In this document: one piece after another, positions 1,808 through 64,000 of the stretch | How the letters are laid out: each line of letters opens with the position of its first letter | Position numbering within the stretch: position 1 is the stretch's first letter | Assembly (NCBI GenBank): GCA_900547955.1 | Contig: URIR01000001.1 | Location: 6,146 to 70,145, forward strand | Direction: 5' to 3' | Origin: an uncultured Eubacteriales bacterium | GTDB taxonomy: Bacteria; Bacillota; Clostridia; Christensenellales; QALW01 | Length of the DNA stretch: 64,000 nt | The notes under the pieces: model-generated | What the model was told of the DNA's origin: nothing | Databases searched by the model: none | What the model saw: only the letters and a program-made list of their open reading frames with translations | Program-made: the position numbers and the translations under genes

Positions 1808-1810
1808 GAG

Positions 1811-1861: not shown

Positions 1862-1867
1862 ACCAGT

Positions 1868-1960: not shown

Positions 1961-2155
1961 GCCATATTCCTCCTTTCATAAGTAAATGATAAAAGCGTTT
2001 ATGCGCTTTTATATATAATATTAATATTGGATTATTGAGGGCGTAGTCATGACCACAACTAAAAGACGTGGCATGAACGATATCCATAAAAGTGCATGAT
2101 GTTAGCTGTACCTAAAAGTAACGCTGAGATGTGGGTTGTGCATAACTTTATTTCT

Positions 2156-2413: not shown

Positions 2414-2426
2414 ATGTATATCTCCT

Positions 2427-4178: not shown

Positions 4179-4213
4179 CAGACCTCACCTCATCAAAATC
4201 TAATTTAAATGAT

Positions 4214-5827: not shown

Positions 5828-6498
5828 AAACTTACTCCTTTTAATTATTGTTTATAGCCGCATTCTACTATAGAACGAATTCTCCCAATTTCACACTCTC
5901 TACAAACCATGAATTTAAAAAGACTTTTTAGTACTCACTCGAACACAAAAAGCGAAACAAGGTACAAATAAATACTATGATTCATGTCGCTCATAAATTT
6001 TATAGAAAATGAATAGAATAAACATAAGAAACTATAACTGCTATTATATGATAAAATTTGAACATATTTTTGACGTCCCATTTGTTGTTACGTTCTTTTA
6101 TCTTTTCTATTCATCTCCCTTTGGAATATTGCGTGAAAAATATTACTCATCTCCATTAGACTATCACACATTTTTTCAAATGTCAATATTTAATTTTAAA
6201 ATTTGCGGCTATATTATATATAAATTTCATTATATCTTTTGTCTAACATGTCGCAGTTTTGCTCTATCAAAAAACTAATAATTTGCACCATATTCATAAA
6301 TTTAATCGTATAAATATATTTTGTTGAATATATTTTATTAGAAATACCGTGAAACTTCCGATATCTCGCCTGAGAATCTGCAAAAGGTAATCAATAATTT
6401 GTTATCATCTGTTTTTATCGCTACATTTTTAATTAACATTGAGAGTGTATAAGTTTCACCATCTTAAGTTGCCCCTTGCCATTCAGTAACAATTTTTT

Positions 6499-7525
6499 CT
6501 ATGTTCTTTGTTTTACTTGTACCTTATATATTAATTGCTTTTTGATCGTGCCATATAAATCATAACCTGCAAAAATAAAATTTTTATCAGGTACAGTCGA
6601 TAAAGAATTAAAGTAAACAATTATAATTTGTGGAATAGTTTCTACTACATAACAATCTTTATCTATTTTAGCTAGAATCATTTCCTGTATAAAACCAATT
6701 ATTAGCTTCCCAAGTAATGAAGAAGCGTCTCCACAAGTGGGTATTCCTGTACCATTAAGACATAAGGAAGTTTTATCGATAGAATTTGTGGTATGTATGC
6801 CAATGCGCTGAACCGCTTTTCCTTCAACTGTTTGTGTATTTGTATATGTTGTACACTCGTGTTCAATCAATAAGAAGTTATCTTTCTCACACTACTCGTT
6901 TTCCAATACCACGTTGCTTTACAATTGTGTTGTTCTTTAATAATCAATTCTTTCAGTTTAAATCCAGCATTTTGGAAAATTCCCATAACTTCAAAAGACA
7001 TCGGGATCATACAGCCTTTTTGACGGGTATCTCCCATTAAAACAGCACAAAACTTGTCTTTTTTTAATATACGGTAGCTTTCAGCAGCATTTCCTCAATA
7101 AAGTCTTTGACTTTCAGATTAGACAAATTTTCTGCGATGTCCTTGCTGTATTTGATAATATCAGCATGAGGCGGGTGGGTAAAGATAAGGTCAATACTAC
7201 CGCTCTAAATAAAATCCAAGTGCCTTGCCTTTGCGAATATAAACCTTACTGTTTGCACCCTTGTGTTCAAAATCAATTTTAATTCTGCATCTATCAAGAG
7301 CAACATCGTTCACATCAACGCTGATGATATCACTCAGTAAACTGATCAAGTACTAAATCTCCCTCTTCCGAATATCGAAGTGATATATTCTTGGAATATA
7401 GGGCGACCAATTCCCACTCCATTTTGCATCGTGAGTCGCACAGTCGCCACGATTGGGAAAAGACCAGTATGTAGTAATTTCCGGTTCTGAATCTTCTGGC
7501 TCTGATTTTGTTGTTTTCTTTGCCG
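6499..7525 (-). pseudogene. Decayed DNA methyltransferase (N6A/N4C type) downstream of the DpnII-like endonuclease
   Basis: Pieces lie in three frames: YWSFPNRGDCATHDAKWSGNWSPYIPR / LRYSEEGDLVLDQF(stop) / VDVNDVALDRC..GFYLER(stop) / GSIDLIFTHPPHADIIKYS...ATVY(stop)...KFCAVLMGDTRQKG..FKLKELIIKEQHN..NFLLIEHE. The expected GxGTT AdoMet motif after VLDxF is deleted. The listed ORF 6499..6870 begins inside the last conserved motif. Confidence 0.65.
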
Positions 7526-8404
7526 TTATTTGAAGACCTCGCTAATGATTCCATTCTCCAAATCCTTGATGTTGTAAATATGTTCCATTACGTCAAAAGT
7601 TTCTTCAAGGTTGTTTCGGGCGCTTGTCCATCCTTTACCATCCGTAAACCATACAAAAGTGAATCCATCAATAGTATCCGTTTCAAGAGCAAGAGTCTTA
7701 TAGCTGCGAGCCGTTTCGTTGAGTTTACTGCCTCCGCTTCCATAAAAGTTGGTTTCAATGCCATAAATCATGCTGGGAGTTTTTATAACGAAGTCAAACC
7801 GCTTTTCCATTTTGCCTTGATTGGATATAGCAGAGAGATCGATATCCCATTTTGCGGTGATTTGGTGTATGTACATTTCCTTGAAGTAGGTTGTGTCTTT
7901 TACAAACTTTGCTTTCTTGATAAAGCTTTCAACTAAATCTTCCATCAAATGCCCGCCACGATTTTTACGACCGTTAGAATCCAATCCTGTCTCTACACCT
8001 GTAACATAGTCAACAAGATTATTGATGATGTGATTTTCCAGTAAGTCAAATAACCCTGTATGCTCCATAAAATAAGCATAACGCTCATAATGCGCATAGC
8101 TATTCGGAGAGTATTTTCCAAAGTTAAATTTGTACAGATAACCACCGTTTTCATCTTGACAATATATTTCATTAGCTCTGACTGCCAAAAGCAGAGGAAT
8201 ACATTTCAAAGCTTCAGGATACTTCTTGATTAAAGTTTTGAAATCTTCTTTAATGCTCTTAGAGCCAATAAGAGAATTCAGGATATTCAGTTCAACCTTT
8301 ATATTATCGATATTGCGGTGAACTTTTTCAAAGTCTATGTAATAGCGGTAGTCTGCTATGCTATCACGGAAACTTGATAACCATTCGTTGAAATTTCTCA
8401 CCAT
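7526..8404 (-). CDS. DpnII/MboI-family type II restriction endonuclease (GATC-type)
   Basis: MVRNFNEWLSSFRDS...VTGVETGLDSNGRKNRGGHLMEDLVESF...GIETNFYGSGGSKLNE matches my memory of the DpnII family. Start reassigned to the ATG at 8404, one nt after the stop of the upstream gene, with GAAGGAG as RBS. Confidence 0.8.
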   Translation of the reverse strand: MVRNFNEWLSSFRDSIADYRYYIDFEKVHRNIDNIKVELNILNSLIGSKSIKEDFKTLIKKYPEALKCIPLLLAVRANEIYCQDENGGYLYKFNFGKYSPNSYAHYERYAYFMEHTGLFDLLENHIINNLVDYVTGVETGLDSNGRKNRGGHLMEDLVESFIKKAKFVKDTTYFKEMYIHQITAKWDIDLSAISNQGKMEKRFDFVIKTPSMIYGIETNFYGSGGSKLNETARSYKTLALETDTIDGFTFVWFTDGKGWTSARNNLEETFDVMEHIYNIKDLENGIISEVFK

Positions 8405-8405
8405 A

Positions 8406-8942
8406 TTATCTCCTTCTTCCCCCAAATCCTGCCGTAGATATGATTTTAAATATATCACGGTCTGCATCTAATAGCTCCTCGATAATGTTTCCAAACATAT
8501 AGGCATCGGCACGATTGGTCTTTTCCTGTACAGCCAATAATTCCATCAAAACATAAAGAAACTCAACATCATATTCACCAAAAGCATTTAAGCTGAAAAA
8601 CTGAGCAATATCAATGTCGTTTTCGCCATTTTTGATTAGTGCCTTTAGCGTTTCATAATCATTATTGGTTAGTGGAACACAAGATTTCCAGCAATTTTGA
8701 ATAGCCAGCAAATATCTCTTTGCAAGAATTTCATTCCCCTGCATTTTCATCAATACATCTACTACCCAATGAATGTGCTTAGGAGTACGGATACGTGTAC
8801 TGTCTTTTTTGTACTTGATTACAATATCAAATTGCGATAAATTCCCTTGAAAAACATAGATAATATAATCTGTAAAGATAAATTCTATAATCGCTTTTTT
8901 AGTATCGTTTTCGATAAGTTGACTTCCTTTTCTGATTTCCAT
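8406..8942 (-). CDS. Hypothetical 178-aa protein embedded in the R-M operon
   Basis: Clean ORF, tightly packed between the methylase and the endonuclease and translationally coupled to the endonuclease. I recognise no motif. Confidence 0.6.
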   Translation of the reverse strand: MEIRKGSQLIENDTKKAIIEFIFTDYIIYVFQGNLSQFDIVIKYKKDSTRIRTPKHIHWVVDVLMKMQGNEILAKRYLLAIQNCWKSCVPLTNNDYETLKALIKNGENDIDIAQFFSLNAFGEYDVEFLYVLMELLAVQEKTNRADAYMFGNIIEELLDADRDIFKIISTAGFGGRRR

Positions 8943-8953
8943 ATATAAACCCC

Positions 8954-10024
8954 TTAAAAATTAGAAATAAGCAATTCCTTGATTTTACCCCTTGCCTCGC
9001 TGTTGCAGTTAATCATACGGGTAGCTTCAACACGCTTGATTCTATGAGACGAATAAATGTTATCGAAGAAGTTATCTTCGGTGTTAGAATTCTTGGGATC
9101 GGAATTGCTAATTACGACCTTTGCACCTTTTCTGTGCATATTATCAACGAATTTTGCGAGCTCAATCTGTTTTTCATCGTTAAACAAATTTTCCGTGTAT
9201 GCAGTAAAGCTCGCAGTATCTGTTATGGGGCGATATGGAGGGTCAAAATAAACGAAAGTATTGGCATCAATGAAAGCAGCTGATTCTCTATAGTCTCCGC
9301 ACACAATGTTTACCGTTTGCAGTTTTTCTGACACCGCTCTGAGATTTTCTTCATCACAAATCGAAGGATTTTTGTAAGCTCCCATAGGTACATTAAACAA
9401 GCCTTTTTTATTGACTCGGTATAAGCCGTTAAAGCAAGTTTTATTAAGAAAAATCATCAACGCTGCCTTTTCAATATTTACAATCTCGTTTCCATTGACT
9501 TTCAAATTATTAAAACGCTCCCGCTTTGCCAAGTAATATGCTTTGCGATGCTCCGTATCCATTGGAACAAACTCACTTTGCATGATTGCAAGCGTAAAAA
9601 CAAGATCATATATGTCGTCACGAATAATGCGATAGGCATTAATTAGTTCTGCATTAATGTCGCTGATATACACTTCCTTCAAATCGTACTTGCTTAAAAT
9701 ATCAAAAAGCACGGCGCCACCGCCTACAAATGGCTCGGCATACTTAGTAATTTTTTTATGTCCAAAGGGATAGTACTTTTCAATTTCGGACAGAAGCTGT
9801 CCTTTGCCACCCGCCCATTTTAAGAACGGTTTAACTTTACCACTATCCTGTTGCAAATATCGAGTAGTCCTCGCATCGATTGGTTTTTCTGCCGTAGTAG
9901 GTATGAGCCACGTATTACCCACCATTTTGGCATTAGCTATTCTGTTCTCCGAACAAAGAATAGCAACGCGTCTTTGTGATACCCCCCATTTATCAGCAGC
10001 TTCTCTTGCGGACATGTATTCCAT
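8954..10024 (-). CDS. Dam-type (D12 class) N6-adenine DNA methyltransferase with an N-terminal HTH domain
   Basis: N-terminus MSAREAADKWGVSQRRVAILCSENRI (HTH). Then KPFLKWAGGKGQLL, EPFVGGGAV and YFDPPY, the Dam family motifs. Confidence 0.9.
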   Translation of the reverse strand: MEYMSAREAADKWGVSQRRVAILCSENRIANAKMVGNTWLIPTTAEKPIDARTTRYLQQDSGKVKPFLKWAGGKGQLLSEIEKYYPFGHKKITKYAEPFVGGGAVLFDILSKYDLKEVYISDINAELINAYRIIRDDIYDLVFTLAIMQSEFVPMDTEHRKAYYLAKRERFNNLKVNGNEIVNIEKAALMIFLNKTCFNGLYRVNKKGLFNVPMGAYKNPSICDEENLRAVSEKLQTVNIVCGDYRESAAFIDANTFVYFDPPYRPITDTASFTAYTENLFNDEKQIELAKFVDNMHRKGAKVVISNSDPKNSNTEDNFFDNIYSSHRIKRVEATRMINCNSEARGKIKELLISNF

Positions 10025-51579: not shown

Positions 51580-51827
51580 ACAACAAGGTTTATAATCAGA
51601 GAGACTAAAGAGTATCAAATGCGTATACTGTCTGATTTAAGCGTGATATGCGTTATTATTCAGGTTATATTTGAAATTTTCATAAATGCGGCATAATCAG
51701 CTAAAAGTCAAAACAAAGGAAGAGTAAGTCAAATTAGTAAATTGAATTTGGGTGTTACTGACATTATAATTTTAATATACTGCTGACCTTATTATAAATT
51801 ACGGTCGGCACATAAGGAGGATTCAGT

Positions 51828-53801
51828 ATGAGAAAATGGTTATGCGCGGCAATAAGTGCGCTGCTTATTGTCTTGGTAATGCCTTTTTCCGCTTTTGCGG
51901 AGGAAACTGTGCTTGATGCTGTTTGGGATTATTCGATAATATATAATAGGCCCAATCCCGGAGAAACCAATCAGGCGTCAAGCCTGTTCTGTATGAACCA
52001 GGTCAATAATGCAAATGACACTTACAAGCTAGGACAGCTTGTATCAAAATATGATCCGCAAACTAAAATGATTACGCTTACCAATAAGCATGCGAAGAAA
52101 TATAATCAGGTATACGATAAAATATTATCCAATAATAATCCGAATGGTTTCGGATATTTTATAAGAAATAATCATCAGGGACGCAATTATATTGCGATTG
52201 ACGCAGTAAATAACAGCGGCGTTAAGGTGGGAGTGGGGCTTACCCTGCAGGCTAAAGCGGGGGATTCGTATGTAAGATATTTTGAGCCTGATTCAAATTA
52301 TTATCTTATGGATGAAAACCAAAATATTGTTAAGGCGGATACTGACGCTTGGACGGCCGGCCTGGGCAGCGGAACAACCGATTATTACTGCTTGCTGCCT
52401 GCGGGCTTTAAGGGAACGATATATGTTGATATGGCCGGGTTCAGAAATTTAGGCGGATATACATTTGACCAGATTGAAGCGGTAGCCTTTGAAATACGCA
52501 GCGCGGCCTCTGCTGCGGCTGCAAGTGAACAGAACCCGCAGAATCTGGAAATCCAGCTCGGAAATTTCCGTCTGACTCAGAATATGCCCAAGGCGCTTAC
52601 CAGAATAGAGGTTTCCAGACTTCCCGACAAGCTTATTTGTGTTAAGGATGAAAATTTGTCCTTAGACGGAGGAGAGCTTACCTTGGTTTATGGCGGCGGC
52701 TATTATGATAGCGTTGTTATTCCAATGAATGATCCGTCGGTAACCGTTTCCATTCCGGAAGGAGAAGCCTTTGGAATCAGGAACATAGAGCTGGGGATAG
52801 CCGGGCAGCACATTAAAACTTCTATAGAAATTAATGTGCTGCCCGCAGCCCTTAAAGGCATATCAGTAAAAACGCCGCCGCGTACTCAATATGCGGTAAA
52901 TGATTGCTTAAATGCCGAGGGCGGCGTGTTGACGCTGCTTTTTGACGGCAATCAAAAAGCGGAGATACCTATGGAAACCGCCGGAGTGGAGATTATATGC
53001 GATACGTCTTTAATGGGCAAAAAGAAGGCCAAGGTGCTTTACGGCGGCTTTGAAGCTGAATTCATGATTGAAGTTTTGGATATATTGGTATTGAAAAGCT
53101 TTAATGAAATGGAAGACGTACAATTTACACAGCCTGCCGGCGATGATTATACATTTGCAAAGGGTACTTTGAAAAATGGCCGGCTTAGTTTGGAAAACAT
53201 ACCTAACGAGGATAAGGATACTTACTTTATTTGGTCGTTTAAATCTTCTATTATGGGCCAAAGATTTGCTGCCGGGCATGAGGGCTATGATTATGTTTGC
53301 TTTGATGTGGAAAATAATACGGGAGAGGATGTTGCCTTTACCAGTCTATTATGCCGTACAGGCAGCGTTTCCATGGTATCGGATAACGGTTATCTTTTAG
53401 CCGAGCGCAACAGCAATCCTGTTCCCGGCGACCATATGATAAGCGCTATCTTCCCCTGGAGTCATGCTAACAACCGTTACGTTATTGTGCCGGCCGGGTT
53501 CTCAGGAATCATCATGATGAGCCTTAAGGACTTTGAGATAAAGCAGGGCCCGTATAACGGCGGAACCGAAATGACGCTGGACGAAGTAACCTATTTGGAC
53601 ATTCAGTTCCGTTACGGGGGGGATAAAATAATAGACGGCAATATAACCGTAGGGGATATATTCCTTTGTAAGGATGGATTTATTAAAGCGCAGGAGACGG
53701 GAGACGATTCTTTTCCTGCCGCTGCGCTGGGATTGGTTGTGCTGCCTCCTCTGACCGTACTTCTTTATTGCATGATTTTCAAAAAACGTCAGTATAGGTA
53801 A
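51828..53801 (+). CDS. Secreted surface protein with a C-terminal TM anchor; function unknown
   Basis: Signal peptide (..PFSAFAEE) and a C-terminal hydrophobic helix followed by KKRQYR. Confidence 0.6.
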   Translation: MRKWLCAAISALLIVLVMPFSAFAEETVLDAVWDYSIIYNRPNPGETNQASSLFCMNQVNNANDTYKLGQLVSKYDPQTKMITLTNKHAKKYNQVYDKILSNNNPNGFGYFIRNNHQGRNYIAIDAVNNSGVKVGVGLTLQAKAGDSYVRYFEPDSNYYLMDENQNIVKADTDAWTAGLGSGTTDYYCLLPAGFKGTIYVDMAGFRNLGGYTFDQIEAVAFEIRSAASAAAASEQNPQNLEIQLGNFRLTQNMPKALTRIEVSRLPDKLICVKDENLSLDGGELTLVYGGGYYDSVVIPMNDPSVTVSIPEGEAFGIRNIELGIAGQHIKTSIEINVLPAALKGISVKTPPRTQYAVNDCLNAEGGVLTLLFDGNQKAEIPMETAGVEIICDTSLMGKKKAKVLYGGFEAEFMIEVLDILVLKSFNEMEDVQFTQPAGDDYTFAKGTLKNGRLSLENIPNEDKDTYFIWSFKSSIMGQRFAAGHEGYDYVCFDVENNTGEDVAFTSLLCRTGSVSMVSDNGYLLAERNSNPVPGDHMISAIFPWSHANNRYVIVPAGFSGIIMMSLKDFEIKQGPYNGGTEMTLDEVTYLDIQFRYGGDKIIDGNITVGDIFLCKDGFIKAQETGDDSFPAAALGLVVLPPLTVLLYCMIFKKRQYR

Positions 53802-53902
53802 TATTCTCGATTACTGCCTTAGGTCAATAATTGCAGTTATGGCGGCTTATATAAAATAAATATGGTTTAAATATAAAAAATAATTAAAATTGAGGGATAA
53901 AA

Positions 53903-55021
53903 ATGAAAATTAGAAGAGTTTGTATAGCTATAATAGCTTTGATAGTGTGCGGCTGCGGATGTTCCGCTCAGCAGACCGGGACGTCTGCTTCCGCTTCTGC
54001 GACGGCTCAGACTGATTTCGCTGCGGAAGCAACCAAGTCTCCCAACGCTTCTTTTCCGCAAGGCACGCCGTCGGGAACTGCCGCTGGTTGGCCAACCGGC
54101 GGCCGGACGAACGGCCAGTCTACGGCTTCTGCTACGTCCGAACCTGTCCAGTCTCAGTCTGCCCCGCCTGTGCAGGATGCGTTTAACCCGATTGCACGTT
54201 TTATTATAACTACTGATATTCATTATCCTGTTAAACTGGAAAAGCTAATGACTCAGGCATATGCCTATGCCGAAAAGCAGACATATAAGAATTTGGACGC
54301 GCTGCTTATAGCGGGCGACATTAATCAGGATACGGATGAGCAGGGGATACAGTCGTATAAACAGGTCATATCTAATAAAGTGAAAGAGGGCACTCAAATA
54401 ATAACCTGCATGGGCAATCATGAGTTTATGGAGGATACGGAAAACTGGGAGACAGTAGGAATCAAATATTATACTCAAGAAAAATCTGTACAAATGTATA
54501 AAGAGATGACTGGCGAGGAACCCAACGTGCATAAAGTAATCAACGGCATCCATATAATCGCCTGGTCGCCCACTATTTCTTCTTCTAATGTTATTTCATA
54601 TGCCGATAACATATCATGGCTGAAAGAACAGCTTGAAATTGCGGCTGCAGATTCAAAGACCAATCCTATTTTGGTTATGCAGCATTATCCTGTGCGCAAT
54701 ACCTCTTACATTACTGGAAGCACGGCAATGACCAATATAAGTCTGAATGAGGCGGATAAGCTTTTTAAGCAATATCCGCAGATAATAAATTTGACGGGGC
54801 ATAGTCATAATCCCCTGGCATTTACTACAGCCATAGTGCAGACAGATTACACATCTATAAATTGCGGAGTAGGGTATGGTTACGGAGCGGCTATAGATTT
54901 TATGGGTTCAATGCTTAATACTGAAGGCGCTCAGCAAATGCTTATTGCAGAGATAGACGCGTCAGGAGAAACCAGGCTGATTGTATGGGATAACCAATCA
55001 AATACAGCGTTCTATGATTAG
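53903..55021 (+). CDS. Calcineurin-like metallophosphoesterase lipoprotein
   Basis: Lipobox VCGCGC, then GDINQD, GNHEF and GHSHNP motifs. Confidence 0.75.
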   Translation: MKIRRVCIAIIALIVCGCGCSAQQTGTSASASATAQTDFAAEATKSPNASFPQGTPSGTAAGWPTGGRTNGQSTASATSEPVQSQSAPPVQDAFNPIARFIITTDIHYPVKLEKLMTQAYAYAEKQTYKNLDALLIAGDINQDTDEQGIQSYKQVISNKVKEGTQIITCMGNHEFMEDTENWETVGIKYYTQEKSVQMYKEMTGEEPNVHKVINGIHIIAWSPTISSSNVISYADNISWLKEQLEIAAADSKTNPILVMQHYPVRNTSYITGSTAMTNISLNEADKLFKQYPQIINLTGHSHNPLAFTTAIVQTDYTSINCGVGYGYGAAIDFMGSMLNTEGAQQMLIAEIDASGETRLIVWDNQSNTAFYD

Positions 55022-55198
55022 CCCTGGACTATCATCCACCGCCCTGACCGTACCTCTTGTGTTCGGCTCGATGGGGTGGGGATCGGCACCCATCTGCAAG
55101 AGCATAATCCTTGTGCCGGGCGGGTAGTTGTCCTTCATACGCTGTGCAAAGCGCCTTTCTGCTTCCAATCTGTTCATGTTGTATTCTCCCTTCGTCAT
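54998..55198 (-). pseudogene. DUF4314-like gene with a truncated or replaced C-terminus
   Basis: MKDNYPPGTRIMLLQMGADPHPIEPNTRGTVRAVDDS matches the DUF4314 pattern. The tail LIIERCI reads into the neighbouring gene's 3' end. Confidence 0.5.
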
Positions 55199-56049
55199 AG
55201 CTGCATAGTTCCGAAATGCGGGCTTTCAGACATTCTCTGTCGGAAATCTGTTTCGTTTTCCATAAAATAATCATCGCCGCTGTGCCAGAAAGACACATAA
55301 ATATCTCCGTCATCGGTCTTGATTTCACGCTGTTCCAGACCTTCTCCAAAGCCGTCCGCCGCCTGACCGATCAGTTCGCCGATCCATTCCTGTTCTTCTG
55401 CCGATGAAAAGGCTTCCCGAAGACCGGTGCGGATCACGCCGTACAGCTCGTCGCCGACTTCCTGTACATCCCAAACAGCGGAGACAAGTTTAGATTTTGC
55501 GGATTCGCTGCCGTCAAAATAGTCCGCCATATTATGAAGGTCGCGCTCCTGTTCGCGCTTTACAAGTTCACGGATTGCATCCTCATGGGCAACGCCGTAA
55601 CCGTTGCCGGCCTCGTACCAATCCCCATATTCTTCATCGGTCATGTGGATTTGGAGAGGGCAGTAATAATTAACGGTAACGCTGATAAGCTCCTCCGTCA
55701 TGGCTTTGATATCTTCCATCACTGCCTGCGGAGAGAAATACTGACCGTGGATGATATGCTGTTCCAGTTCTTCCAAAATTTCCGGTCTGGCGTTTTCTAC
55801 CATGTGGGCGCACAGGTTGGCGTCTTCCAATGAATGAGATGGTTTAAACAGCACTGCCAAGCTGCTGCCGATATCCGAATCGGCAAAGAGCTTTACCTGA
55901 ATGCCGCTGTCCTCATCGTCGTTAATGGGAATGTCCCGTAGTCGGCTGCGGATACCGATCTGCGACAGATCATACAGCAGGGAGAAGGGGTTAGAGGGAA
56001 GGTTCAGCACGGCTGTTTGATCTCCGTTTTGAATCAGTGCGTTAATCAT
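55195..56049 (-). CDS. Hypothetical acidic protein (mobile-element associated)
   Basis: Clean 284-aa ORF that overlaps its neighbours by a few nt. No motif recognised. Confidence 0.5.
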   Translation of the reverse strand: MINALIQNGDQTAVLNLPSNPFSLLYDLSQIGIRSRLRDIPINDDEDSGIQVKLFADSDIGSSLAVLFKPSHSLEDANLCAHMVENARPEILEELEQHIIHGQYFSPQAVMEDIKAMTEELISVTVNYYCPLQIHMTDEEYGDWYEAGNGYGVAHEDAIRELVKREQERDLHNMADYFDGSESAKSKLVSAVWDVQEVGDELYGVIRTGLREAFSSAEEQEWIGELIGQAADGFGEGLEQREIKTDDGDIYVSFWHSGDDYFMENETDFRQRMSESPHFGTMQL

Positions 56050-56734
56050 ATCGTACCTCCGTATTATTTAAGATTGCAGTGCCATAGCGGGCGATGGTTA
56101 CCGCCTGCACGATCAGACGGAAGGCATTGTCGGAGATAATACCGCTGTCTGCCAGTTCACACAGCGATATTTGCTTCTCACCGGTCTGCAGCTCTTTTAC
56201 CGCTTTCCACAGGGCGTAGCAGTCTGTCGGTACATCTCCGAGACGAACGCTTTTGAAATCGATCCTGCCGTTTGGGGAGAACAGGTGCTTTGTTTTTCTC
56301 CACAGTATATGGTCGGCAGTCAGCAGATACAAAACAGCAAGAACCTTTTTGCAGGGCTTTCGCAGAGATGATCGCTCGGCTTCAAAAATCTGCTTATGCC
56401 TGTTGTTTTGGAAAATCATTTCTGCATCATCCTTTCGGTGGTATATTTGTGACAGGCGTTTTTGAAATGCTGTATTTTGGGCATCTCTGAAAACAGCTTT
56501 TACTGCATCGCCGGCAGAAGCAGCGCCGCAGGCAAGCCGGATATCCAGCACCGGACAGACCTGGACAGTGCATCCGTCTTTTTTCCTGTAGTAGAGACAG
56601 AATTTGCAATCGCAGTCTTTCCCGGTGTATTTGTATAGGCTGCAGTTTCTGCCTCCGCCACGCTGTATGCCGCCGGGAGGACGTTTCATCATCGCCTCCA
56701 CACTGTTGAGGGACGGGGTATTGGTAAAATACAT
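56042..56734 (-). CDS. Hypothetical Cys-containing protein (mobile-element associated)
   Basis: Start at the ATG at 56734 (RBS AAGGAG). Contains the CDCKFCLYYRKKDGCTVQVC cluster. Confidence 0.5.
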   Translation of the reverse strand: MYFTNTPSLNSVEAMMKRPPGGIQRGGGRNCSLYKYTGKDCDCKFCLYYRKKDGCTVQVCPVLDIRLACGAASAGDAVKAVFRDAQNTAFQKRLSQIYHRKDDAEMIFQNNRHKQIFEAERSSLRKPCKKVLAVLYLLTADHILWRKTKHLFSPNGRIDFKSVRLGDVPTDCYALWKAVKELQTGEKQISLCELADSGIISDNAFRLIVQAVTIARYGTAILNNTEVRYD

Positions 56735-57002
56735 TTTGATCGCTCCTTTGAAATAAAAAAAGCCCGAAGTCTTTTGCAAAACTTCGGGCAGTGAAAACGC
56801 AGAAACAGCAGACAAGTTTTTAATGACTTGTCTGCCGTTTGAAGCAGTTATTCTGTTGTACGGGAGTTCAAATCTATCCGCAAAGCAAAAACAGCCGTTT
56901 TATATCTACGAATATGCGCCTTGAAATCCCGGTGTTTGGGCAGCAAAAAACCCCGATTTTATCGGGGTTTATGCGGAACATATCTTTTTTATGTTCCTGT
57001 TA

Positions 57003-57303
57003 TGGTGCGAGTGGAGGGACTTGAACCCTCACGCTGTCTCCAACCCGGGATTTTCGTACTGCTCTATGTTGCCATAGCCGCTTATTTTTAAACGTTGCAG
57101 TCTGGACTATACCTTCGCCCTGCCTGAAGCTTAGGCTGGGGGCGCGCGCCGTCTAGTCTCTACACGTTCCCTTGTTTAAGGGCTTCGCTCGGTATTGTCC
57201 AAAAAATGGAGTTCCACCGAATTTGACGCGATTCACGCCGGGGATTTCGCCCCGGGTGCTCAAATTTTAAGTCCCGTGCGTCTGCCGGTTCCGCCACACT
57301 CGC
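57003..57303 (-). tRNA. tRNA-Leu(UAA) interrupted by a group I intron (exons 57269..57303 and 57003..57054, CCA encoded)
   Basis: The spliced sequence GCGAGTG TG GCGGAACCGGCAGACGC A CGGGA CTTAAAA TCCCG GGTTGGAGACAGCGT GAGGGTTCAAGTCCCTC CACTCGC ACCA folds as a class II tRNA with anticodon UAA. Confidence 0.85.
57055..57268 (-). ncRNA. Group I intron (IC3-like, 214 nt) between U34 and A35 of tRNA-Leu
   Basis: The 5' splice-site U can form a U-G pair in a P1 helix (GGGACUU / GAGCACCC), and the intron ends in G. Core strings GTCAAATTCGGTGGAAC, GTGTAGAGACTAGACGGCG, CCTAAGC and GGTATAGTCC match my memory of the Azoarcus/Anabaena tRNA introns. Confidence 0.8.
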
Positions 57304-57536
57304 ATATCAACGCCTATTTATAATATCACGCTTCGGAATTTTGAGCAAGCGATTTTTTAAGCGTCTTGATTTTTGCATAAACGCGTTTTCATGCGCCGAT
57401 AGGCGTGCGGACAAATACGCGGGGATGTAAAGTTAATTTTTTTGATTTTGGTCTAACCTCCTCGACAATTTATCCGTTTTTAAGGGGAGTTAAATAGGTA
57501 TGCAAAAGGAAAAATGCGTGATTTCGCTTTTTTTGG

Positions 57537-59218: not shown

Positions 59219-59911
59219 ATGATGAAACACGGAAAAAAATATTTGGAAAGCCTTAAATTAGTGGACGCTCAAAAGCTCTATGATACGGAGGAGGCCATAG
59301 AACTGGTGCTTCAGACTGCTAAGGCCAAATTTGATGAGACCGTTGAGCTTTCCATTAAGCTGGGCGTTGACCCCCGCCATGCGGATCAGCAGGTTCGCGG
59401 CGTAGTAGTGCTGCCTAACGGCACGGGCAAAAAGGTGCGTATTCTGGCTATAGCTAAGGGCGAACGCGCGGCTGAGGCTGAAGCGGCGGGCGCTGATTAT
59501 GTAGGCGCTGAGGAAATGGTAGCCAAGATTCAGAATGAAAACTGGTTTGATTACGACGTAATCGTTACCACTCCTGATATGATGGGCCTTGTAGGCCGTT
59601 TGGGTAAGGTGCTGGGACCTAAGGGTTTAATGCCTAACCCCAAGAGCGGTACTGTTGCTGCGGATCTTTCCCGCGCTATTAATGAAATTAAAGCAGGTAA
59701 GGTTGAATACCGCGTAGATAAAACCGCTATAGTGCATGTGCCTATCGGCAAGGCCAGCTTTGGCAAGGATAAGCTTGTAGAGAACCTGAATGTGCTGATG
59801 GAAGCTATTATTAAAGCTAAGCCGTCTGTTTCCAAGGGAACTTATCTTAAGAGCGTGGCTCTTTCCACTACTATGGGTCCTGGAATCCGACTTAATGCGG
59901 CTAAATTTTAA
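59219..59911 (+). CDS. rplA: 50S ribosomal protein L1
   Basis: Full-length L1 pattern ([24 protein letters not shown]). Confidence 0.97.
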
Positions 59912-59976
59912 GCTTGGGGGAATATAGGCAGTTTTGTATACTGCTTACCGCCCTGTAAAATATTACGTTTTTATTG

Positions 59977-60008
59977 ACGGCTCGGTTTTATCCGAGTCGT
60001 TTTTTTAT
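59977..60008 (+). terminator. Rho-independent terminator after rplA
   Basis: ACGGCTCGG-ttttat-CCGAGTCGT followed by TTTTTTTATT. Confidence 0.75.
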
Positions 60009-60310
60009 TGTTTAGCATTATTGAGCAGGATGTGATGCGGTTTTAGAAAAGTGCATTTGTTTTTTTGATGTGCTGCTTTTGCCTGGAAGTCAATATTTTA
60101 AGGCTGTAGACGCATTATTAGTTATACATTCTCGCTTTTTGTTTTAATGCAGGCTGCCGTTAAAAACCTCTATGAGATTTTTGACGATGTTTACCGTATA
60201 TTTAAGAGTTAATTTGCATTTTATACCTGAATTGTATTGTTCCATTATATATTGTTAATAATATATTTCATAATTGCGCCTACCCCAAAAAATCCTACGG
60301 GAGTGTAAGT

Positions 60311-63300
60311 ATGGAATATATTTTGTTGACAGTTTTAATGCTAGCGATAATTTGGATAATTGTATATGAGGCTAAAAAGAAGCGTACATACGCTTCTTTA
60401 AAGGCAGGCGGTCCGTTGAAGGCGATAGAATCGCCTGATTTAAGCGTCGCCGGGATTAAAAAGGTTAAAAAAGCGCTGCCTAATCCAGCCTTAATGCAGA
60501 CCGCTTTGGAAGAGGCCGTCGCCAGACTGGAGAGCTTGGCGCCCGGAGAATTTGAATTAGGGCTGAAATGGCTTGCGGACAATAAAAACCGTCTTTTCAG
60601 CGAGGCGGAGCAAGTATGCGCTCAACAAGCCAATCTTTCTATGAAGCTTCCTGTAAATAAACGAGGTAATCTTAGGGTATACGAGGCGGCTGGTTATTTT
60701 ATAATTAAAAACGGCGGCAACTTCAGTCAGGAAGATTTAATCGCATATATTAAGCAGTTGAATTCATGCGAAGAGATGCAGCTTGAGGAGGGGTTTTTAC
60801 TGCCGTTTTGCCTTAAGCTATGTATTTTGGAGTATATTACGCAGGCGGCTTTAAATATGCTGGAGTCTGCCGGAAATTATGAGCGGCTGGAGCGTCTGGC
60901 AAAGGAAAAGCGCAGCGACGCTCTCTTGCGCGAGCTTAATCAGGACAGCACAGGGGAGAGCTTTTATAATCTTATGCTTATTCTCTCCCGGCAGGAACAG
61001 GATAGCGAGCTTGAAGTGCTGTGCGGGCGCGCCCTAAGCCGGCGCGGATTGGATAGGGAATCCCTGCTGGAGGAAACGCGTTTGGCTCATTCCAGGCTTT
61101 CGGCGGCTGTAGCCGCCTCGGTTAAGCGGCTTATAACTATAGGAGATATAGAGAGCGAAACGGTAGTGGAGGAAACGTTCGGCGCTGAGCGTATGCTGCT
61201 TGAGGAGAAGTCGGGAACATACGCGAGCTCTAACAAAGCTACCCGAAGCGCATGCCGCGTAGCTTTAGCGCGCATGAGCAGACGGTACGGCGCTGACGAA
61301 ATGGAAATTCTTCGTACAGCCTATCGGCTGTCTGAAGAGGATAATCCCTATGGAGGAATATGCGCTTATCTTATAGGGGGCGAAAGGCAAAAGCTTATAG
61401 ACCGGCTTTTTGAGGAAGGCAAGATAAAAAGCCGTAAAACCTATCTTTCCAAAAAAAGCATGGGGATATATTATTTCTGCGCTTTGGGGCTTATAACGTT
61501 TTTAATGCTGACGCCTTTGGTTATATATGCTGCTGGCGCGGCGGATTCCCTTAAATGGCTTTATGGGCTGATAACCGCTGTTGTGGGCCTTGCGCCTGCG
61601 TATATTATGACGGAAATACTGCTTAACAGCATGATAAATATATTTGTTAAGCCTGTGGTAGTGCCCGGCCTAAAGGAGGAGCTGTGCGATTCGGCCCAGT
61701 ATCGCACAGCCGTGGTTATTCCTGCGCTTTTAAGCAGTCAAAAGCGCGCGGGCGAAGTGTGCGCGCTGCTTGAAAGGCATTATCTCTCCAATAGATGCGA
61801 AAACGCCGTTTATGTGCTTTTGGGCGACTATAAGGACGGAGATAACCCTCTGGAGGAGCAGGACGCAGGAATTTATGCCGAGGCGTCACGTCGAATAGAG
61901 GCGCTTAATAAAAAATATCCGCATGCGCAGTTTATATATTTGCACCGTGAACGCAAATATGTCGATAGGGATAAGAAATATATGGGTTATGAGCGAAAAA
62001 GGGGCGCGCTCATGCAGCTTATAAAAGTATGCTCTGACGGGGAAAATAATGATTTTATGGGCGACGCAGGCCCGTTGGCCGGAGTAAAATATATTCTGAC
62101 TGTAGACGCGGATACGCGATTGGCGCCGGGCGCGGTGCTGAGCTTGATTTCGCGCGCTGCCCATCCGCTGAACAGGCCGGTATACAGCAAGGAAAAAAAG
62201 AGAATAATTCAAGGCTATGGCATTATACAGCCCGCTATGGGCACGACCATATCCTCGCTTAAAACATATTTTGCGCGTTTTTTCTCTCCTAAGGGGGGAT
62301 TGGACGCTTATTCGGGGCTGGTCAGCGACGTATATCAGGATATATTTAATTGCGCCAGCTTTGGCGGCAAGGGGATTATAGACGTTGGCGCGTTCCAGGA
62401 AGCCATAGGAGAGAGGATTCCTGAAAACACCGTGCTTAGTCATGATTTGCTTGAAGGCTCCTTTCTTCGCTGCGCTACGGCGGGAGACGTAAAATTTTTC
62501 GATAGCTTTCCAGGCGAACCTTTGGCATATTATAAGCGGGCGCATCGCTGGACCCGCGGGGATTGGCAGCTTGCGCGCTGGGTGTTTAAAAACGAGCTTT
62601 CTCCCTTAGCCAGGTTTAAAATATTTGCCAATATGTTTAGAACGCTGTTTCCGGGCTCGGTTTTGATGCTTCTTCTGCTGTCGGTATCAATTCTGCCTGG
62701 AAATATGCTGGTATATTTTGCTTTTGCATTGCAGGCGGTATTTTATCCGCTTGGGCTGGAGGTGTTTTCTAAGGCGGTAGGAGTATATAGGGCTATCAAG
62801 CGCAAATATACCCTGCGGGACGCGCTGCCCGATATATGGGCTGTCATAGTAAGGCTGGCTCTCAGCTTTATATTTCTGCCTTATGAAGCGTATGTATATG
62901 CGGACGCTAAGCTGCGCGCGCTGTACCGTATGCTTATAAGCAGGAAGAGGCTGCTTGAATGGGTGACGGCGGCGGACAGCGAAAAGGGGCGGGCTACGGG
63001 CAACGCTTATGCGGCGGTTATGTGGCCGTGCGCTGTTTTTGGAGCGGTATATTTTCTTGTGGCCGCCGCTTTTGGAAGATATCTGCTCCTGCCGCTGATT
63101 CTTGGTTTGGCCTGGGCCTTTGCTCCTTATATAGCTTACAGGCTGTCCTTCAGCGCGGAATTAAAGACGGACAGGCTGCTGCCTGAACAGCTCTATGCGC
63201 TGCGCATGCTGGCCGCCCGTACCTTTAGATATTTTTATGAGGGTATGAATAAGGATACGCATTATCTGCCTCCGGATAATTTCCAGCAGCGGCCCTTTAT

Positions 63301-64000
63301 CGGCTTTGCTGACAGAACCAGCGCTACAAATATAGGATTCGGAGCGCTTGCCCCGCTTTGCGCGGCGTATATGCGTCTTATGTCCCCTTCGGCGGCTTTA
63401 AAGCTGCTGGATAATACTCTTTTGACAATTGAGAGTTTGGAAAAATGGAATGGGAATTTATATAATTGGTATAAAATATCTGATTTAAGCCCTATGGAGC
63501 CTAAATATATTTCCAGCGTGGACAGCGGCAATTTTCTTTGCTGTCTTTTGGCCTGCCGTGGTATGCTCTCGGGGTTATTCAGGCATTCTGTTATGGACGG
63601 GCGCCTGAAGGAGGGCCTGCGTACTCTTTTAATGAGCATAGTGGATGAAAAGCGTATGGATAAGGAGCTGTATGAGCAAATAAGGCAGTATGACGGCGCG
63701 CTGGCGGCCGCTCAGAATATTTCCGCTTTGTGCGCCGTGCTCGGCCAAATAATAGGGGATAACAGCCTGGATTCGGTTAAAGGGATAAAGTTTGTCCGGG
63801 AGATGTATGCGGGCTTTAAGGAAAGCTATATGAATTTGGGCATAGAAGGGGCGTGCAGCGCCAGTCTGTATGAAATAAGCATTAATCCTGACGGTTATTT
63901 TGAAGACAGCGAGTTAAAAAGCGGCGCTTTAAACTATATAGCCTCGTTAAATACCGCCGCTTCGCAGCTTCAGAGCAGAATTGACCGTCTGCTGGAGAAC
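60311..64000 (+). CDS. Cyclic beta-1,2-glucan synthase-like multidomain glycosyltransferase (5' part, 1230 codons open to the window end)
   Basis: Absent from the ORF track because no stop is reached. My translation starts MEYILLTVLMLAIIW... and contains LTVDADTRLAPG, SHDLLEGSFLRCA and YYKRAHRWTRGDWQL plus several TM segments. These are hallmarks of NdvB/Cgs-type enzymes. Confidence 0.75.
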   Translation, partial: MEYILLTVLMLAIIWIIVYEAKKKRTYASLKAGGPLKAIESPDLSVAGIKKVKKALPNPALMQTALEEAVARLESLAPGEFELGLKWLADNKNRLFSEAEQVCAQQANLSMKLPVNKRGNLRVYEAAGYFIIKNGGNFSQEDLIAYIKQLNSCEEMQLEEGFLLPFCLKLCILEYITQAALNMLESAGNYERLERLAKEKRSDALLRELNQDSTGESFYNLMLILSRQEQDSELEVLCGRALSRRGLDRESLLEETRLAHSRLSAAVAASVKRLITIGDIESETVVEETFGAERMLLEEKSGTYASSNKATRSACRVALARMSRRYGADEMEILRTAYRLSEEDNPYGGICAYLIGGERQKLIDRLFEEGKIKSRKTYLSKKSMGIYYFCALGLITFLMLTPLVIYAAGAADSLKWLYGLITAVVGLAPAYIMTEILLNSMINIFVKPVVVPGLKEELCDSAQYRTAVVIPALLSSQKRAGEVCALLERHYLSNRCENAVYVLLGDYKDGDNPLEEQDAGIYAEASRRIEALNKKYPHAQFIYLHRERKYVDRDKKYMGYERKRGALMQLIKVCSDGENNDFMGDAGPLAGVKYILTVDADTRLAPGAVLSLISRAAHPLNRPVYSKEKKRIIQGYGIIQPAMGTTISSLKTYFARFFSPKGGLDAYSGLVSDVYQDIFNCASFGGKGIIDVGAFQEAIGERIPENTVLSHDLLEGSFLRCATAGDVKFFDSFPGEPLAYYKRAHRWTRGDWQLARWVFKNELSPLARFKIFANMFRTLFPGSVLMLLLLSVSILPGNMLVYFAFALQAVFYPLGLEVFSKAVGVYRAIKRKYTLRDALPDIWAVIVRLALSFIFLPYEAYVYADAKLRALYRMLISRKRLLEWVTAADSEKGRATGNAYAAVMWPCAVFGAVYFLVAAAFGRYLLLPLILGLAWAFAPYIAYRLSFSAELKTDRLLPEQLYALRMLAARTFRYFYEGMNKDTHYLPPDNFQQRPFIGFADRTSATNIGFGALAPLCAAYMRLMSPSAALKLLDNTLLTIESLEKWNGNLYNWYKISDLSPMEPKYISSVDSGNFLCCLLACRGMLSGLFRHSVMDGRLKEGLRTLLMSIVDEKRMDKELYEQIRQYDGALAAAQNISALCAVLGQIIGDNSLDSVKGIKFVREMYAGFKESYMNLGIEGACSASLYEISINPDGYFEDSELKSGALNYIASLNTAASQLQSRIDRLLEN

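What the first reader, a model, noticed from the sequence alone, without database searches (positions are those of the whole stretch)
57003..57303. tRNA-Leu(UAA) gene split by a 214-nt group I intron at the canonical U34/A35 position, in a Firmicutes-like genome
**Seen in the sequence:**
- A 7-bp acceptor stem (GCGAGTG / CACTCGC plus ACCA), a D-arm, a T-arm (GAGGG TTCAAGT CCCTC) and a long variable arm are all present.
- The anticodon loop CTT|AAAA is interrupted by 214 nt.
- The intron's 5' side can pair with the exon (GGGACUU with GAGCACCC), placing a U-G pair at the splice site.
- The intron ends in G.
- The interior carries GTCAAATTCGGTGGAAC, GTGTAGAGACTAGACGGCG, CCTAAGC and AAGGTATAGTCC. 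From memory these are near-identical to core segments (P3/P4, P6-P7/J8-7) of the Azoarcus tRNA-Ile and cyanobacterial tRNA-Leu IC3 introns.

**Established knowledge:**
- This insertion site is the hallmark of the ancient cyanobacterial/plastid tRNA-Leu intron.
- Related tRNA introns are known from a few proteobacteria.

**Inference:**
- An instance in a Clostridia-type chromosome is, to my knowledge, unusual.
- It bears on how these introns spread.
- If this is the only tRNA-Leu(UAA) gene, UUA/UUG decoding would depend on self-splicing.
Basis: partly seen in the sequence, partly recalled or inferred. Interest (0 to 1): 0.75.

Follow-up and report, generated by a model that had tools for sequence, protein, structure and literature searches.

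The report
Self-splicing intron inside a leucine tRNA
A leucine tRNA gene in an uncultured Clostridia bacterium is interrupted by a small, well-preserved group I (self-splicing RNA) intron; this is a known kind of element found in many bacterial phyla, here in a host group where it had not been catalogued.

Summary
On the minus strand, 57303..57003 encodes an 87-nt tRNA-Leu(UAA). A 214-nt intron (57268..57055) interrupts it between U34 and A35.

- **Detection:** ARAGORN finds the gene only with intron detection on. Rfam's group I model scores 49.6 bits against a gathering score of 50 (E = 1.4e-11), so default annotation misses it.
- **Fold:** All helices P1–P10 can be drawn, with U·G at the 5' splice site and a terminal G.
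- **Covariation:** 89 homologous tRNA-Leu introns, and a closer set of 22, show strong compensatory change.
- **Selection:** Syntenic sister lineages have identical exons (0 of 87 differences). Their introns carry 29–38 substitutions that mostly preserve pairing. This is a working gene, not a pseudogene.
- **Spread:** The family is widespread. It also occurs in tRNA arrays on viral contigs.
- **Literature:** A 2026 survey lists 333 intron-bearing tRNAs in 18 phyla, with tRNA-Leu 34/35 as a common site. It lists no tRNA-Leu case in Bacillota or Clostridia.

Verdict: a new member of a known kind, of modest interest. Self-splicing itself was not tested.

The parts
57320..57348 (-). Putative promoter of the tRNA gene: TTGCTC (57348..57343), a 17-nt spacer, and an extended -10 element TGaTATTAT (57328..57320). 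It lies about 17 nt upstream of the mature 5' end.
   Evidence: Read directly from the sequence. The consensus scan did not flag it, because the -35 hexamer matches only 3 of 6. Inference only.
57269..57303 (-). 5' exon of tRNA-Leu(UAA): acceptor 5' strand, D arm, anticodon-stem 5' strand, then C32 U33 U34.
   Evidence: ARAGORN with intron detection, and the spliced fold. It is 100% identical in the syntenic sister lineages.
57055..57268 (-). Group I intron, 214 nt, with no ORF of homing-endonuclease size.
   Evidence: Rfam RF00028 at 49.6 bits, E = 1.4e-11. ARAGORN intron call. Helices verified. Covariation. ORF list.
57259..57271 (-). P1: exon CUU (57271..57269) pairs with the internal guide GAG (57261..57259). 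The U.G wobble sits at the 5' splice site.
   Evidence: U.G and C-G are invariant in 89 of 89 homologues, and U-A/U-G in 89 of 89.
57262..57264 (-). Guide-sequence UUU that can pair with the first AAA of the 3' exon (57054..57052). This is P10, which aligns the exons for ligation.
   Evidence: 74.5% paired in the broad set; 89% in the close set. The columns do not covary, so conservation is the only support.
57238..57255 (-). P2 hairpin: CCGGGG/CCCCGG with loop CGAAAU.
   Evidence: All 6 pairs show changes on both sides.
57222..57230 (-). P3 5' strand CGCGUC (57230..57225) followed by J3/4 AAA (57224..57222).
   Evidence: P3 is 99.6% paired, and 4 of its 6 pairs have compensatory changes.
57162..57220 (-). 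P4-P5-P6 domain: P4 57220..57215 / 57194..57189; P5 57210..57198; P6 and P6a 57188..57162.
   Evidence: P4 and P6 are 100% paired, and P6a 91.5-96% with compensatory changes.
57145..57160 (-). P7 5' strand G-(bulged A)-GACUA (57160..57154), J7/3 GAC, and P3 3' strand GGCGCG (57150..57145). Together these form the P3/P7 pseudoknot and the predicted guanosine-binding helix.
   Evidence: P7 is 100% paired in 89 sequences, with one A-U to U-A swap (70 versus 19).
57116..57144 (-). P8 (CGCCC/GGGCG) with a distal hairpin P8a (GCCU/AGGC). This arm is remodelled in this genus.
   Evidence: Outer P8 is 85-90% paired. P8a is only 45-53% paired, so it is genus-specific. The canonical CCUAAG...UAUGG motif seen in 17 of 22 relatives is absent here.
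57104..57115 (-). J8/7 (AAGGUA) and P7 3' strand UAGUC-C.
   Evidence: These are invariant core columns in alignment A1.
57055..57101 (-). 3' domain: P9.0 (57101..57097 / 57062..57058), P9 (57094..57079), P9a capped by a GCAA tetraloop (57077..57064), and the terminal G (omega G) at 57055.
   Evidence: Fold. In the close alignment P9 is 92.7% paired, P9a 100% and P9.0 91.8%.
57003..57054 (-). 3' exon: A35 A36 A37 A38, anticodon-stem 3' strand, long variable arm, T arm, acceptor 3' strand, A73 and CCA.
   Evidence: The tRNA stems covary across the sub-lineage: acceptor 95.5%, anticodon stem 100%, variable arm 97.5%, T stem 100%.
56943..56997 (-). Two hairpins just after the tRNA. The second (CCCCGAU/AUCGGGG) is followed by UUUUUU, a likely intrinsic terminator.
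   Evidence: RNA fold -26.8 kcal/mol, z = -6.3. Weak Rfam matches to terminator parts of other families fall here. The simple terminator scan did not flag it.

Best explanation
This is a functional, chromosomally fixed tRNA-Leu(UAA) gene interrupted between U34 and A35 by a small, ORF-less group I intron. The intron belongs to the compact tRNA-intron (IC3-type) family.

The gene appears to be transcribed from its own promoter as a precursor of about 300 nt. The intron folds into the P3-P9 core. Its guide sequence UUUGAG pairs with the 5' exon end (CUU/GAG, U.G at the splice site) and with the start of the 3' exon (AAA/UUU).

An exogenous guanosine bound in P7 would attack the 5' splice site. 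The terminal G at 57055 would then occupy the same site, and the freed 5' exon would attack the 3' splice site. That joins the exons and restores the anticodon loop CUUAAAA. RNase P and the usual end processing would yield the mature tRNA that reads UUA (and UUG).

Shown here: the gene structure, the fold, its evolutionary maintenance, homology with an intron that splices in vitro, and vertical inheritance at this locus. Inferred: the catalytic steps, the promoter and terminator, and that this is the only tRNA-Leu(UAA) gene.
For: - **tRNA call and spliced cloverleaf:**
- **Group I covariance model:** 49.6 bits, E = 1.4e-11, full-length match.
- **Helices:** all of P1-P10 form with standard pairs, including the P3/P7 pseudoknot and the bulged A in P7.
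- **Broad covariation, 89 tRNA-Leu(UAA) introns:** 79.7% of cells paired versus 34-48% for slid controls. 699 compensatory cells versus 255 +/- 14 in shuffles (0 of 500). P3, P4, P6 and P7 are 99.6-100% paired.
- **Close covariation, 22 sequences:** 94.6% paired versus 37-43% slid, and P5, P9, P9a and P9.0 are then also supported.
- **Homology:** collinear with the Nostoc PCC 7120 tRNA-Leu intron used as the in vitro splicing control in PMC13011429 (133 identical of 201 aligned columns), and with introns that paper classes as IC3.
- **Fixation:** all 10 strain-level loci carrying the identical NusG have the split gene, and none is intron-less.
- **Selection:** syntenic sister lineages (NusG 98-99% identical) have 0 of 87 exon differences but 29 of 213 and 38 of 206 intron substitutions (p = 4.5e-5 and 6e-7). 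Of the substitutions in paired columns, 10 of 11 and 18 of 21 keep the pair.
- **Need for the tRNA:** UUA codons are used, including 2 in rplA.
Against: - No splicing experiment or transcript evidence is available.
- The Rfam score is 0.4 bits below the curated gathering score.
- The P8 arm lacks the canonical CCUAAG...UAUGG tetraloop receptor present in 17 of 22 close relatives, and L2 is a hexaloop (CGAAAU) rather than a GAAA tetraloop. One stabilising tertiary contact may therefore be altered.
- The number of tRNA-Leu(UAA) genes in the genome is unknown.
- The promoter and terminator were not flagged by the consensus scan.
Confidence: 0.88

Rival explanations
1. The intron splices, but not autonomously or not constitutively. 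Having lost the canonical L2-P8 tetraloop/receptor contact, it may need a protein chaperone, high Mg2+ or particular conditions. Splicing would then limit or regulate the supply of tRNA-Leu(UAA).
For: P8 is remodelled in the window's genus. The UAUGG strand of the 11-nt receptor is missing, P8a pairs in only 45-53% of cells across relatives, and L2 is CGAAAU or AGAAAU rather than GAAA. PMC13011429 speculates that tRNA introns may serve regulatory roles.
Against: The catalytic core and all other helices are intact and under selection. No riboswitch or aptamer lies next to the gene, since Rfam finds nothing else nearby. Small IC3 introns such as the Nostoc one splice in vitro without protein (PMC13011429).
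Confidence: 0.08
2. The locus is a decaying pseudogene. The ribozyme is inactive, and an intron-less tRNA-Leu(UAA) elsewhere does the decoding.
For: Only 64 kb of the genome is visible, so a second copy cannot be excluded. The Rfam score is just under threshold.
Against: Exons are 100% conserved while the intron diverges, with compensatory changes. The gene is present in 10 of 10 strains and in all syntenic sister lineages. All 66 family-invariant columns of alignment A1 are retained. [quoted passage not shown]
Confidence: 0.03
3. The intron is a recently acquired mobile element, by homing or phage transfer, rather than a resident of this lineage.
For: After the Eubacteriales MAG, the next nearest relative is a tRNA-Leu(UAA) intron in a 22-tRNA array on a 166-kb viral contig. 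The family has a patchy distribution across phyla.
Against: There is no homing endonuclease ORF. The intron sits at the same syntenic locus in lineages whose introns differ by 14-18%, so it predates their split. The viral copy is only about 77% identical.
Confidence: 0.02

Closest known systems
Nostoc/Anabaena sp. [quoted passage not shown]
   Same: It has the same host gene and the same insertion site (U34/A35). It has the same order of helices and shares the core blocks TCAAA.TC.G.G, CAAT.C.GAGC.AAGCC, AGAGACT.GACGG and AGTCC. It has U.G at the 5' splice site, a terminal G, and no ORF. Identity is 133 of 201 aligned columns. The reference sequence came from the PMC13011429 supplement, where it was spliced in vitro.
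   Different: The Nostoc intron is 249 nt, with a long P6 extension, against 214 nt here. The Nostoc core reads GCAGAGACTCGACGG...AGAGAGTCCAAT, whereas the window reads GTAGAGACTAGACGG...GGTATAGTCCAGAC. The window is closer (77-80%) to non-cyanobacterial copies, so it is not simply a member of the cyanobacterial clade.
IC3 tRNA-Leu(TAA) 34/35 introns catalogued in Acidobacteriota, Pseudomonadota and other phyla (Table S5 of PMC13011429)
   Same: These share the sequence family. All conserved blocks match, including AGTCCAGAC, CAAAC and the GNRA-capped P9 hairpin. Sizes are similar (211-259 nt), and the paper classes them IC3. Identity to GCF_000022565.1 is 69%. My genome scan returned 120 such loci at its cap.
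   Different: The host phylum differs. The table has no Leu(TAA) entry for Bacillota, Bacillota_A or Bacillota_B. The window's genus has a remodelled P8 without the CCUAAG...UAUGG receptor, and a GCAA rather than a GAAA loop on P9a.
Azoarcus sp. BH72 tRNA-Ile(CAU) intron (the structural model for IC3 ribozymes)
   Same: From my own knowledge, not tested here: it is a compact intron of about 200 nt in a tRNA anticodon loop, with core strings GUCAAAUUCGG and GUGUAGAGACUAGACGG, and GAAA tetraloop contacts L2-P8 and L9-P5.
   Different: It sits in a different tRNA and at a different site. I could not retrieve its sequence with the tools (one search found nothing), so no measured comparison is given.
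Split tRNA-Leu(UAA) in an uncultured Eubacteriales MAG (CAKUFK010000006.1, locus L183) and in related metagenome contigs
   Same: These are the nearest relatives: 214-nt intron, 80% intron identity, and the same motif GTGAATCGCGTCAAATTCGGTG.
   Different: The exons differ (acceptor GCCGCTG rather than GCGAGTG). The locus is not syntenic with the window. It retains the canonical P8 receptor.

Membership tests
Group I intron (Rfam RF00028) | Covariance-model score at or above the curated gathering score | tested here: inconclusive
   49.6 bits against a gathering score of 50, E = 1.4e-11, full-length model match 1-253. It was therefore not listed at the gathering threshold. The threshold is a curation cut-off, not a structural criterion.
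Group I intron | P1 formed by the 5' exon end and an internal guide sequence, with U.G at the 5' splice site | tested here: met
   CUU/GAG with U35.G43. U.G is present in 89 of 89 and 22 of 22 homologues.
Group I intron | Conserved core P3-P4-P6 and P7-P3-P8 with the P3/P7 pseudoknot, maintained by covariation | tested here: met
   All helices form. P3 is 99.6% paired, P4 100%, P6 100% and P7 100%. There are 699 compensatory cells against 255 in shuffles.
Group I intron | Terminal guanosine (omega G), and P10 pairing with the 3' exon | tested here: met
   The intron ends in G at 57055. That column is invariant in alignment A1. UUU/AAA P10 is 74.5-89% paired but does not covary.
Group I intron | Guanosine-dependent self-splicing | not testable with these tools
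   This needs an in vitro transcript plus GTP and Mg2+, or junction-spanning RNA reads.
IC3-type bacterial tRNA introns | Located in the anticodon loop of a tRNA, compact (about 180-260 nt), no homing endonuclease gene | tested here: met
   Position 34/35 and 214 nt. The largest ORF overlapping it is 56 aa.
IC3-type bacterial tRNA introns | Sequence homology with introns already classified as IC3 | tested here: met
   69% identity and all core blocks shared with Acidobacteriota Leu(TAA) introns labelled IC3 in PMC13011429 Table S5. No formal subgroup classifier was run.
IC3-type bacterial tRNA introns | Typical, not defining: a GAAA tetraloop in L2 docking into an 11-nt receptor (CCUAAG...UAUGG) in P8 | tested here: not met
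   The receptor is present in 17 of 22 close relatives but absent in the 5 sequences of the window's genus. L2 is CGAAAU. P8a is 45-53% paired.
Cyanobacterial/plastid tRNA-Leu(UAA) intron lineage | Same insertion site in the same tRNA | tested here: met
   U34/A35 of tRNA-Leu(UAA). The Nostoc reference is 34/35.
Cyanobacterial/plastid tRNA-Leu(UAA) intron lineage | Nearest relatives are cyanobacterial or plastid introns | tested here: inconclusive
   Only one cyanobacterial sequence was available. It is more distant (66%) than Clostridia, viral, Gammaproteobacteria and Alphaproteobacteria copies (77-80%). A proper phylogeny with many cyanobacterial introns was not possible.
Functional class II tRNA-Leu | Cloverleaf with a long variable arm, A73, and exon stems maintained by selection | tested here: met
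   ARAGORN fold. The stems covary at 95-100% paired. Exons have 0 of 87 differences against 29-38 intron substitutions in sister lineages.

The most novel reading that the evidence does not exclude
Phage tRNA arrays may carry endonuclease-less tRNA-Leu(UAA) introns between distant bacterial phyla. After the Eubacteriales MAG, the Clostridial intron lineage's closest relative is an intron-bearing tRNA-Leu(UAA) inside a 22-tRNA array on a 166-kb viral contig. Many other viral contigs carry intron-split tRNAs of several identities. If so, the textbook 'ancient cyanobacterial' trnL intron would be one branch of a horizontally circulating family, and phage tRNA genes would be a previously overlooked reservoir of group I introns.
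Probability: 0.2. Interest if true: 0.55.

Novelty: new member of a known kind. Interest (0 to 1): 0.3.

Why it matters
**Annotation.** Default tRNA and Rfam annotation both miss this gene. Genomes and MAGs of this lineage will appear to lack tRNA-Leu(UAA). That distorts completeness estimates and codon-capacity inferences.

**Biology.** The find extends the host range of the tRNA-Leu(UAA) 34/35 intron family to Clostridia, a group absent for this tRNA from the largest published survey. The intron is stably inherited there and under selection for its fold.

**Translation.** If it is the only tRNA-Leu(UAA) gene, translation of UUA codons, including those in ribosomal protein genes, depends on RNA self-splicing.

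**Origins.** The broad, patchy distribution and the copies in viral tRNA arrays bear on the old debate over whether the trnL intron is ancient and vertical or horizontally spread. This single locus does not settle that debate.

Tried and rejected
- **Default detectors.** Default ARAGORN and Rfam at gathering threshold found nothing. That reflects tool settings, not absence.
- **Consensus scan.** The promoter/terminator scan found nothing. The sequence and an RNA fold still indicate an extended -10 element and a terminator hairpin.
- **Island repeat.** I looked for a direct repeat of the tRNA 3' end in the window as an island boundary. There was none.
- **Syntenic intron-less allele.** I looked upstream of rpmG-secE-nusG in relatives with 81-67% NusG identity. 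None has a tRNA-Leu there, so no comparison was possible.
- **L183 synteny.** L183 is not syntenic with the window.
- **Azoarcus ribozyme.** A full-text search for its sequence found nothing, so that comparison stays a recollection.
- **Isolated phage genomes.** They give only partial core matches of 24% coverage or less. The one hit covering the 5' exon (Synechococcus phage ACG-2014e) is an intron-less tRNA-Leu(UAA), so the match is exon similarity only.
- **Stop-codon-recoding preprint.** Its 'group I intron' mentions do not concern tRNA genes.
- **Fusobacterium genome paper.** Its mentions concern IStrons, not tRNA introns.
- **Own covariance model.** I did not build one, because a model of about 230 positions would exceed the calibration limit. 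MAFFT alignments plus explicit pair counting were used instead.
- **Low pairing of P9, P9a and P8a in the broad alignment.** For P9 and P9a this proved to be a register problem, resolved in the closer alignment. P8a stays poorly paired there (52.6%) and is specific to the window's genus.

Full report
**1. What is in the sequence**

The feature lies on the minus strand.

| Part | Window coordinates | Length |
|---|---|---|
| 5' exon | 57303..57269 | 35 nt |
| Intron | 57268..57055 | 214 nt |
| 3' exon (A73 and CCA encoded) | 57054..57003 | 52 nt |

The default tRNA search reports no tRNA anywhere in the 64-kb window. Rfam at gathering thresholds reports no RNA family. With intron detection on, ARAGORN returns tRNA-Leu(taa) c[57003,57303] with a 214-nt intron.

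The exons joined in silico fold as an 87-nt class II tRNA-Leu(UAA) with a long variable arm. A permissive Rfam search gives a full-length match to the group I intron model RF00028. The score is 49.6 bits, 0.4 below the gathering score of 50, with E = 1.4e-11. That gap explains the silence of the default scan.

**2. The fold**

Every helix of a group I ribozyme can be drawn with standard pairs.

- P1: exon CUU with guide GAG, with U.G at the splice site.
- P10: guide UUU with the first AAA of the 3' exon.
- P2, P3, P4, P5, P6 and P6a.
- P7 with a bulged A, pseudoknotted with P3.
- P8 and P8a.
- P9.0, P9, and a GCAA-capped P9a.
- A terminal G at 57055.

Relatives do not support it. No ORF of homing-endonuclease size overlaps the intron.

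Upstream, the sequence shows TTGCTC, a 17-nt spacer, and TGaTATTAT. Downstream lie two hairpins, the second followed by U6 (-26.8 kcal/mol, z = -6.3). The simple consensus scan flagged neither, so these signals are inference.

**3. Relatives and covariation**

About 30 of those 120 loci hold tRNA-Leu(taa) genes with introns of 196-263 nt at the same position. Others hold split tRNA-Tyr, Arg(tct), Lys, Ser, Pro, Thr, Met and Ala.

The single genome-collection scan used a pattern anchored on the tRNA-Leu 3' exon. The record titles are mostly Alphaproteobacteria, Acidobacteriota and Gammaproteobacteria. There are also Bacteroidota, a Caldilineaceae MAG, a Chloroherpetonaceae MAG, two Bacilli MAGs and one Eubacteriales MAG. 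ARAGORN confirms 70 of them as split tRNA-Leu(taa).

| Alignment | Cells paired | Slid controls | Compensatory cells | Shuffled |
|---|---|---|---|---|
| A1, 89 distinct introns | 79.7% | 34-48% | 699 | 255 +/- 14 (0 of 500 reach it) |
| A2, 22 closer sequences | 94.6% | 37-43% | 201 | 59 +/- 7 (0 of 500 reach it) |

In A1, P3, P4, P6 and P7 are 99.6-100% paired, and the splice-site U.G is invariant. The peripheral arms looked poor there.

A2 was gathered with the motif GTGAATCGCGTCAAATTCGGTG from the viral and metagenome collections. On A2, P5 is 97.7% paired, P9 92.7%, P9a 100% and P9.0 91.8%. The tRNA stems covary too: acceptor 95.5%, anticodon stem 100%, T stem 100%. P8a remains at 52.6%.

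**4. Is it a live gene?**

The identical NusG occurs in 406 blocks of the contig collection. All 10 loci fetched carry the split gene: 6 identical over 301 nt and 4 with a one-base longer intron. None is intron-less.

Metagenome contigs whose pre-tRNA is 87-90% identical are syntenic with the window. They carry rpmG-secE-nusG-rplK-rplA next to the tRNA, with NusG 98-99% and L1 94% identical.

| Sister lineage | Exon differences | Intron substitutions | Fisher p | Paired-column substitutions that keep the pair |
|---|---|---|---|---|
| L265 / L287 | 0 of 87 | 29 of 213 | 4.5e-5 | 10 of 11 |
| L261 | 0 of 87 | 38 of 206 | 6e-7 | 18 of 21 |

In most of these cases the partner base changed as well. 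This is the signature of selection on both the tRNA and the ribozyme fold, and of vertical inheritance at this locus.

UUA codons, which only a UAA-anticodon tRNA reads well, are used: 2 in rplA, and 215 of about 13,300 codons in long open stretches. Whether a second tRNA-Leu(UAA) gene exists elsewhere in the genome could not be determined.

**5. Host**

The window's NusG has no named relative above 67% identity. The named ones are Clostridia bacterium, Christensenellales, Gehongia tenuis and Caldicoprobacterales. The nearest intron relative comes from a MAG labelled uncultured Eubacteriales.

The host is therefore an uncultured Clostridia lineage. Relatives with 81-67% NusG identity have no tRNA-Leu upstream of rpmG, so the gene's position is specific to this genus.

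**6. Comparison with what is known**

PMC13011429 (mSystems 2026) surveyed 4,934 complete genomes.

- It found 333 tRNAs with group I introns in 18 phyla.
- It names 34/35 in tRNA-Leu as a common site.
- It classes 81% of the introns as IC.
- It finds few homing endonuclease genes.

Its Table S5 lists Acidobacteriota Leu(TAA) 34/35 introns labelled IC3, which are plainly the same family as the window's. In the Bacillota block it lists only Arg(TCT) x4 (Bacillota), Asn(GTT) x1 (Bacillota_A) and Ile2(CAT) x1 (Bacillota_B). There is no Leu(TAA) entry. An earlier paper notes split tRNA-Leu-TAA genes in Beggiatoa and Thiomargarita (PMC4853749).

| Compared with the window intron | Identity over aligned columns |
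|---|---|
| Nostoc PCC 7120 tRNA-Leu intron (in vitro control; sequence) | 66%, collinear |
| Acidobacteriota IC3 intron | 69% |
| L025 (viral), L121 (Alphaproteobacteria), L141 (Gammaproteobacteria) | 77-79% |
| L183 (Eubacteriales MAG) | 80% |

In a distance tree the window pairs with L183. Next out is L025, a 166-kb viral contig, and then a group of Gammaproteobacteria MAGs. The tree was not bootstrapped and rests on 207 columns, so this order is indicative only.

**7. How this copy differs**

In 17 of 22 close relatives, P8 carries CCUAAG...UAUGG. From established knowledge, this is the 11-nt receptor for a GAAA tetraloop, which in Azoarcus-type introns receives L2. The five sequences of the window's genus lack the UAUGG strand. 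They have a longer outer P8 with a variable distal hairpin, and an L2 hexaloop CGAAAU or AGAAAU. This may weaken one tertiary contact. Its effect on splicing is unknown, and it motivates the second-ranked explanation.

**8. Verdict**

The element is a new member of a known and widespread kind. Its modest novelty lies in three things:

- the host group (Clostridia);
- the clean evidence for vertical inheritance under selection;
- the link to intron-bearing tRNA arrays on viral contigs.

Self-splicing itself remains untested.

Noticed in passing
window 51800-57000; loci L241-L250 (positions about 1-8900): The DNA beyond the tRNA's 3' end differs between strains that share identical nusG and tRNA. 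Some carry type I restriction-modification cassettes (HsdR/HsdM/HsdS). Others carry DUF4314/DUF3846/LPD28/SpaA-type mobile-element genes or an AraC regulator. The window has three small unannotated ORFs (55032-56815, no Pfam hits). The 3' side of this tRNA looks like an integration hot spot, yet no repeat of the tRNA 3' end was found in the window.
   Followed up: partly
window 1-10000: A low-GC block (about 30% against 45-50% elsewhere). It encodes two radical SAM proteins (one with a SPASM domain), a subtilase fused to a DUF1611 P-loop domain (a RiPP-like set), and a DpnII endonuclease with a D12 N6-adenine methyltransferase (7526-10024). It is probably a horizontally acquired island.
   Followed up: partly
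L025:1845-2120, L255:4317-4608, L288 (same gene order as L025); other viral loci in L001-L120: Intron-split tRNA-Leu(UAA) genes sit inside multi-tRNA arrays on large viral or viral-like contigs. L025 has 22 other tRNAs in 11.7 kb, with the split gene directly before tRNA-Leu(caa) and tRNA-Leu(tag). Viral contigs also hold split tRNA-Tyr, Arg(tct), Lys, Ser, Pro, Thr, Met and Ala. The 2014 review PMC3984707 stated that all phage introns seen to that date were in protein-coding genes. Isolated phage genomes in the 'phages' collection showed no full-length relative of the window's intron.
   Followed up: partly
L025, L279, L019, L035, L047, L075, L086 (alignments): Several of the viral-contig tRNAs with anticodon UAA and this intron lack the long variable arm expected of tRNA-Leu. 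ARAGORN names them by anticodon alone, so their amino-acid identity is uncertain.
   Followed up: no
window 59911-64000 (about 60311 onward); L241:12209-20401 compared with L251-L254: In this species rplA is followed by a 2730-aa gene with Glycoamylase and GH94 domains, not by rplJ-rplL. All four more distant relatives examined have rplJ-rplL there. The ribosomal-protein cluster has been broken at this point.
   Followed up: no
window 57003-57303: Default ARAGORN and Rfam gathering thresholds both miss the gene. Standard annotation of this lineage will therefore report tRNA-Leu(UAA) as absent. PMC13011429 raises the same issue for tRNA-based genome completeness estimates.
   Followed up: yes
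L131, L130, L211 (genome loci): A few family members have much longer introns (377-417 nt by ARAGORN). They may carry insertions or ORFs and were excluded from the alignments.
   Followed up: no
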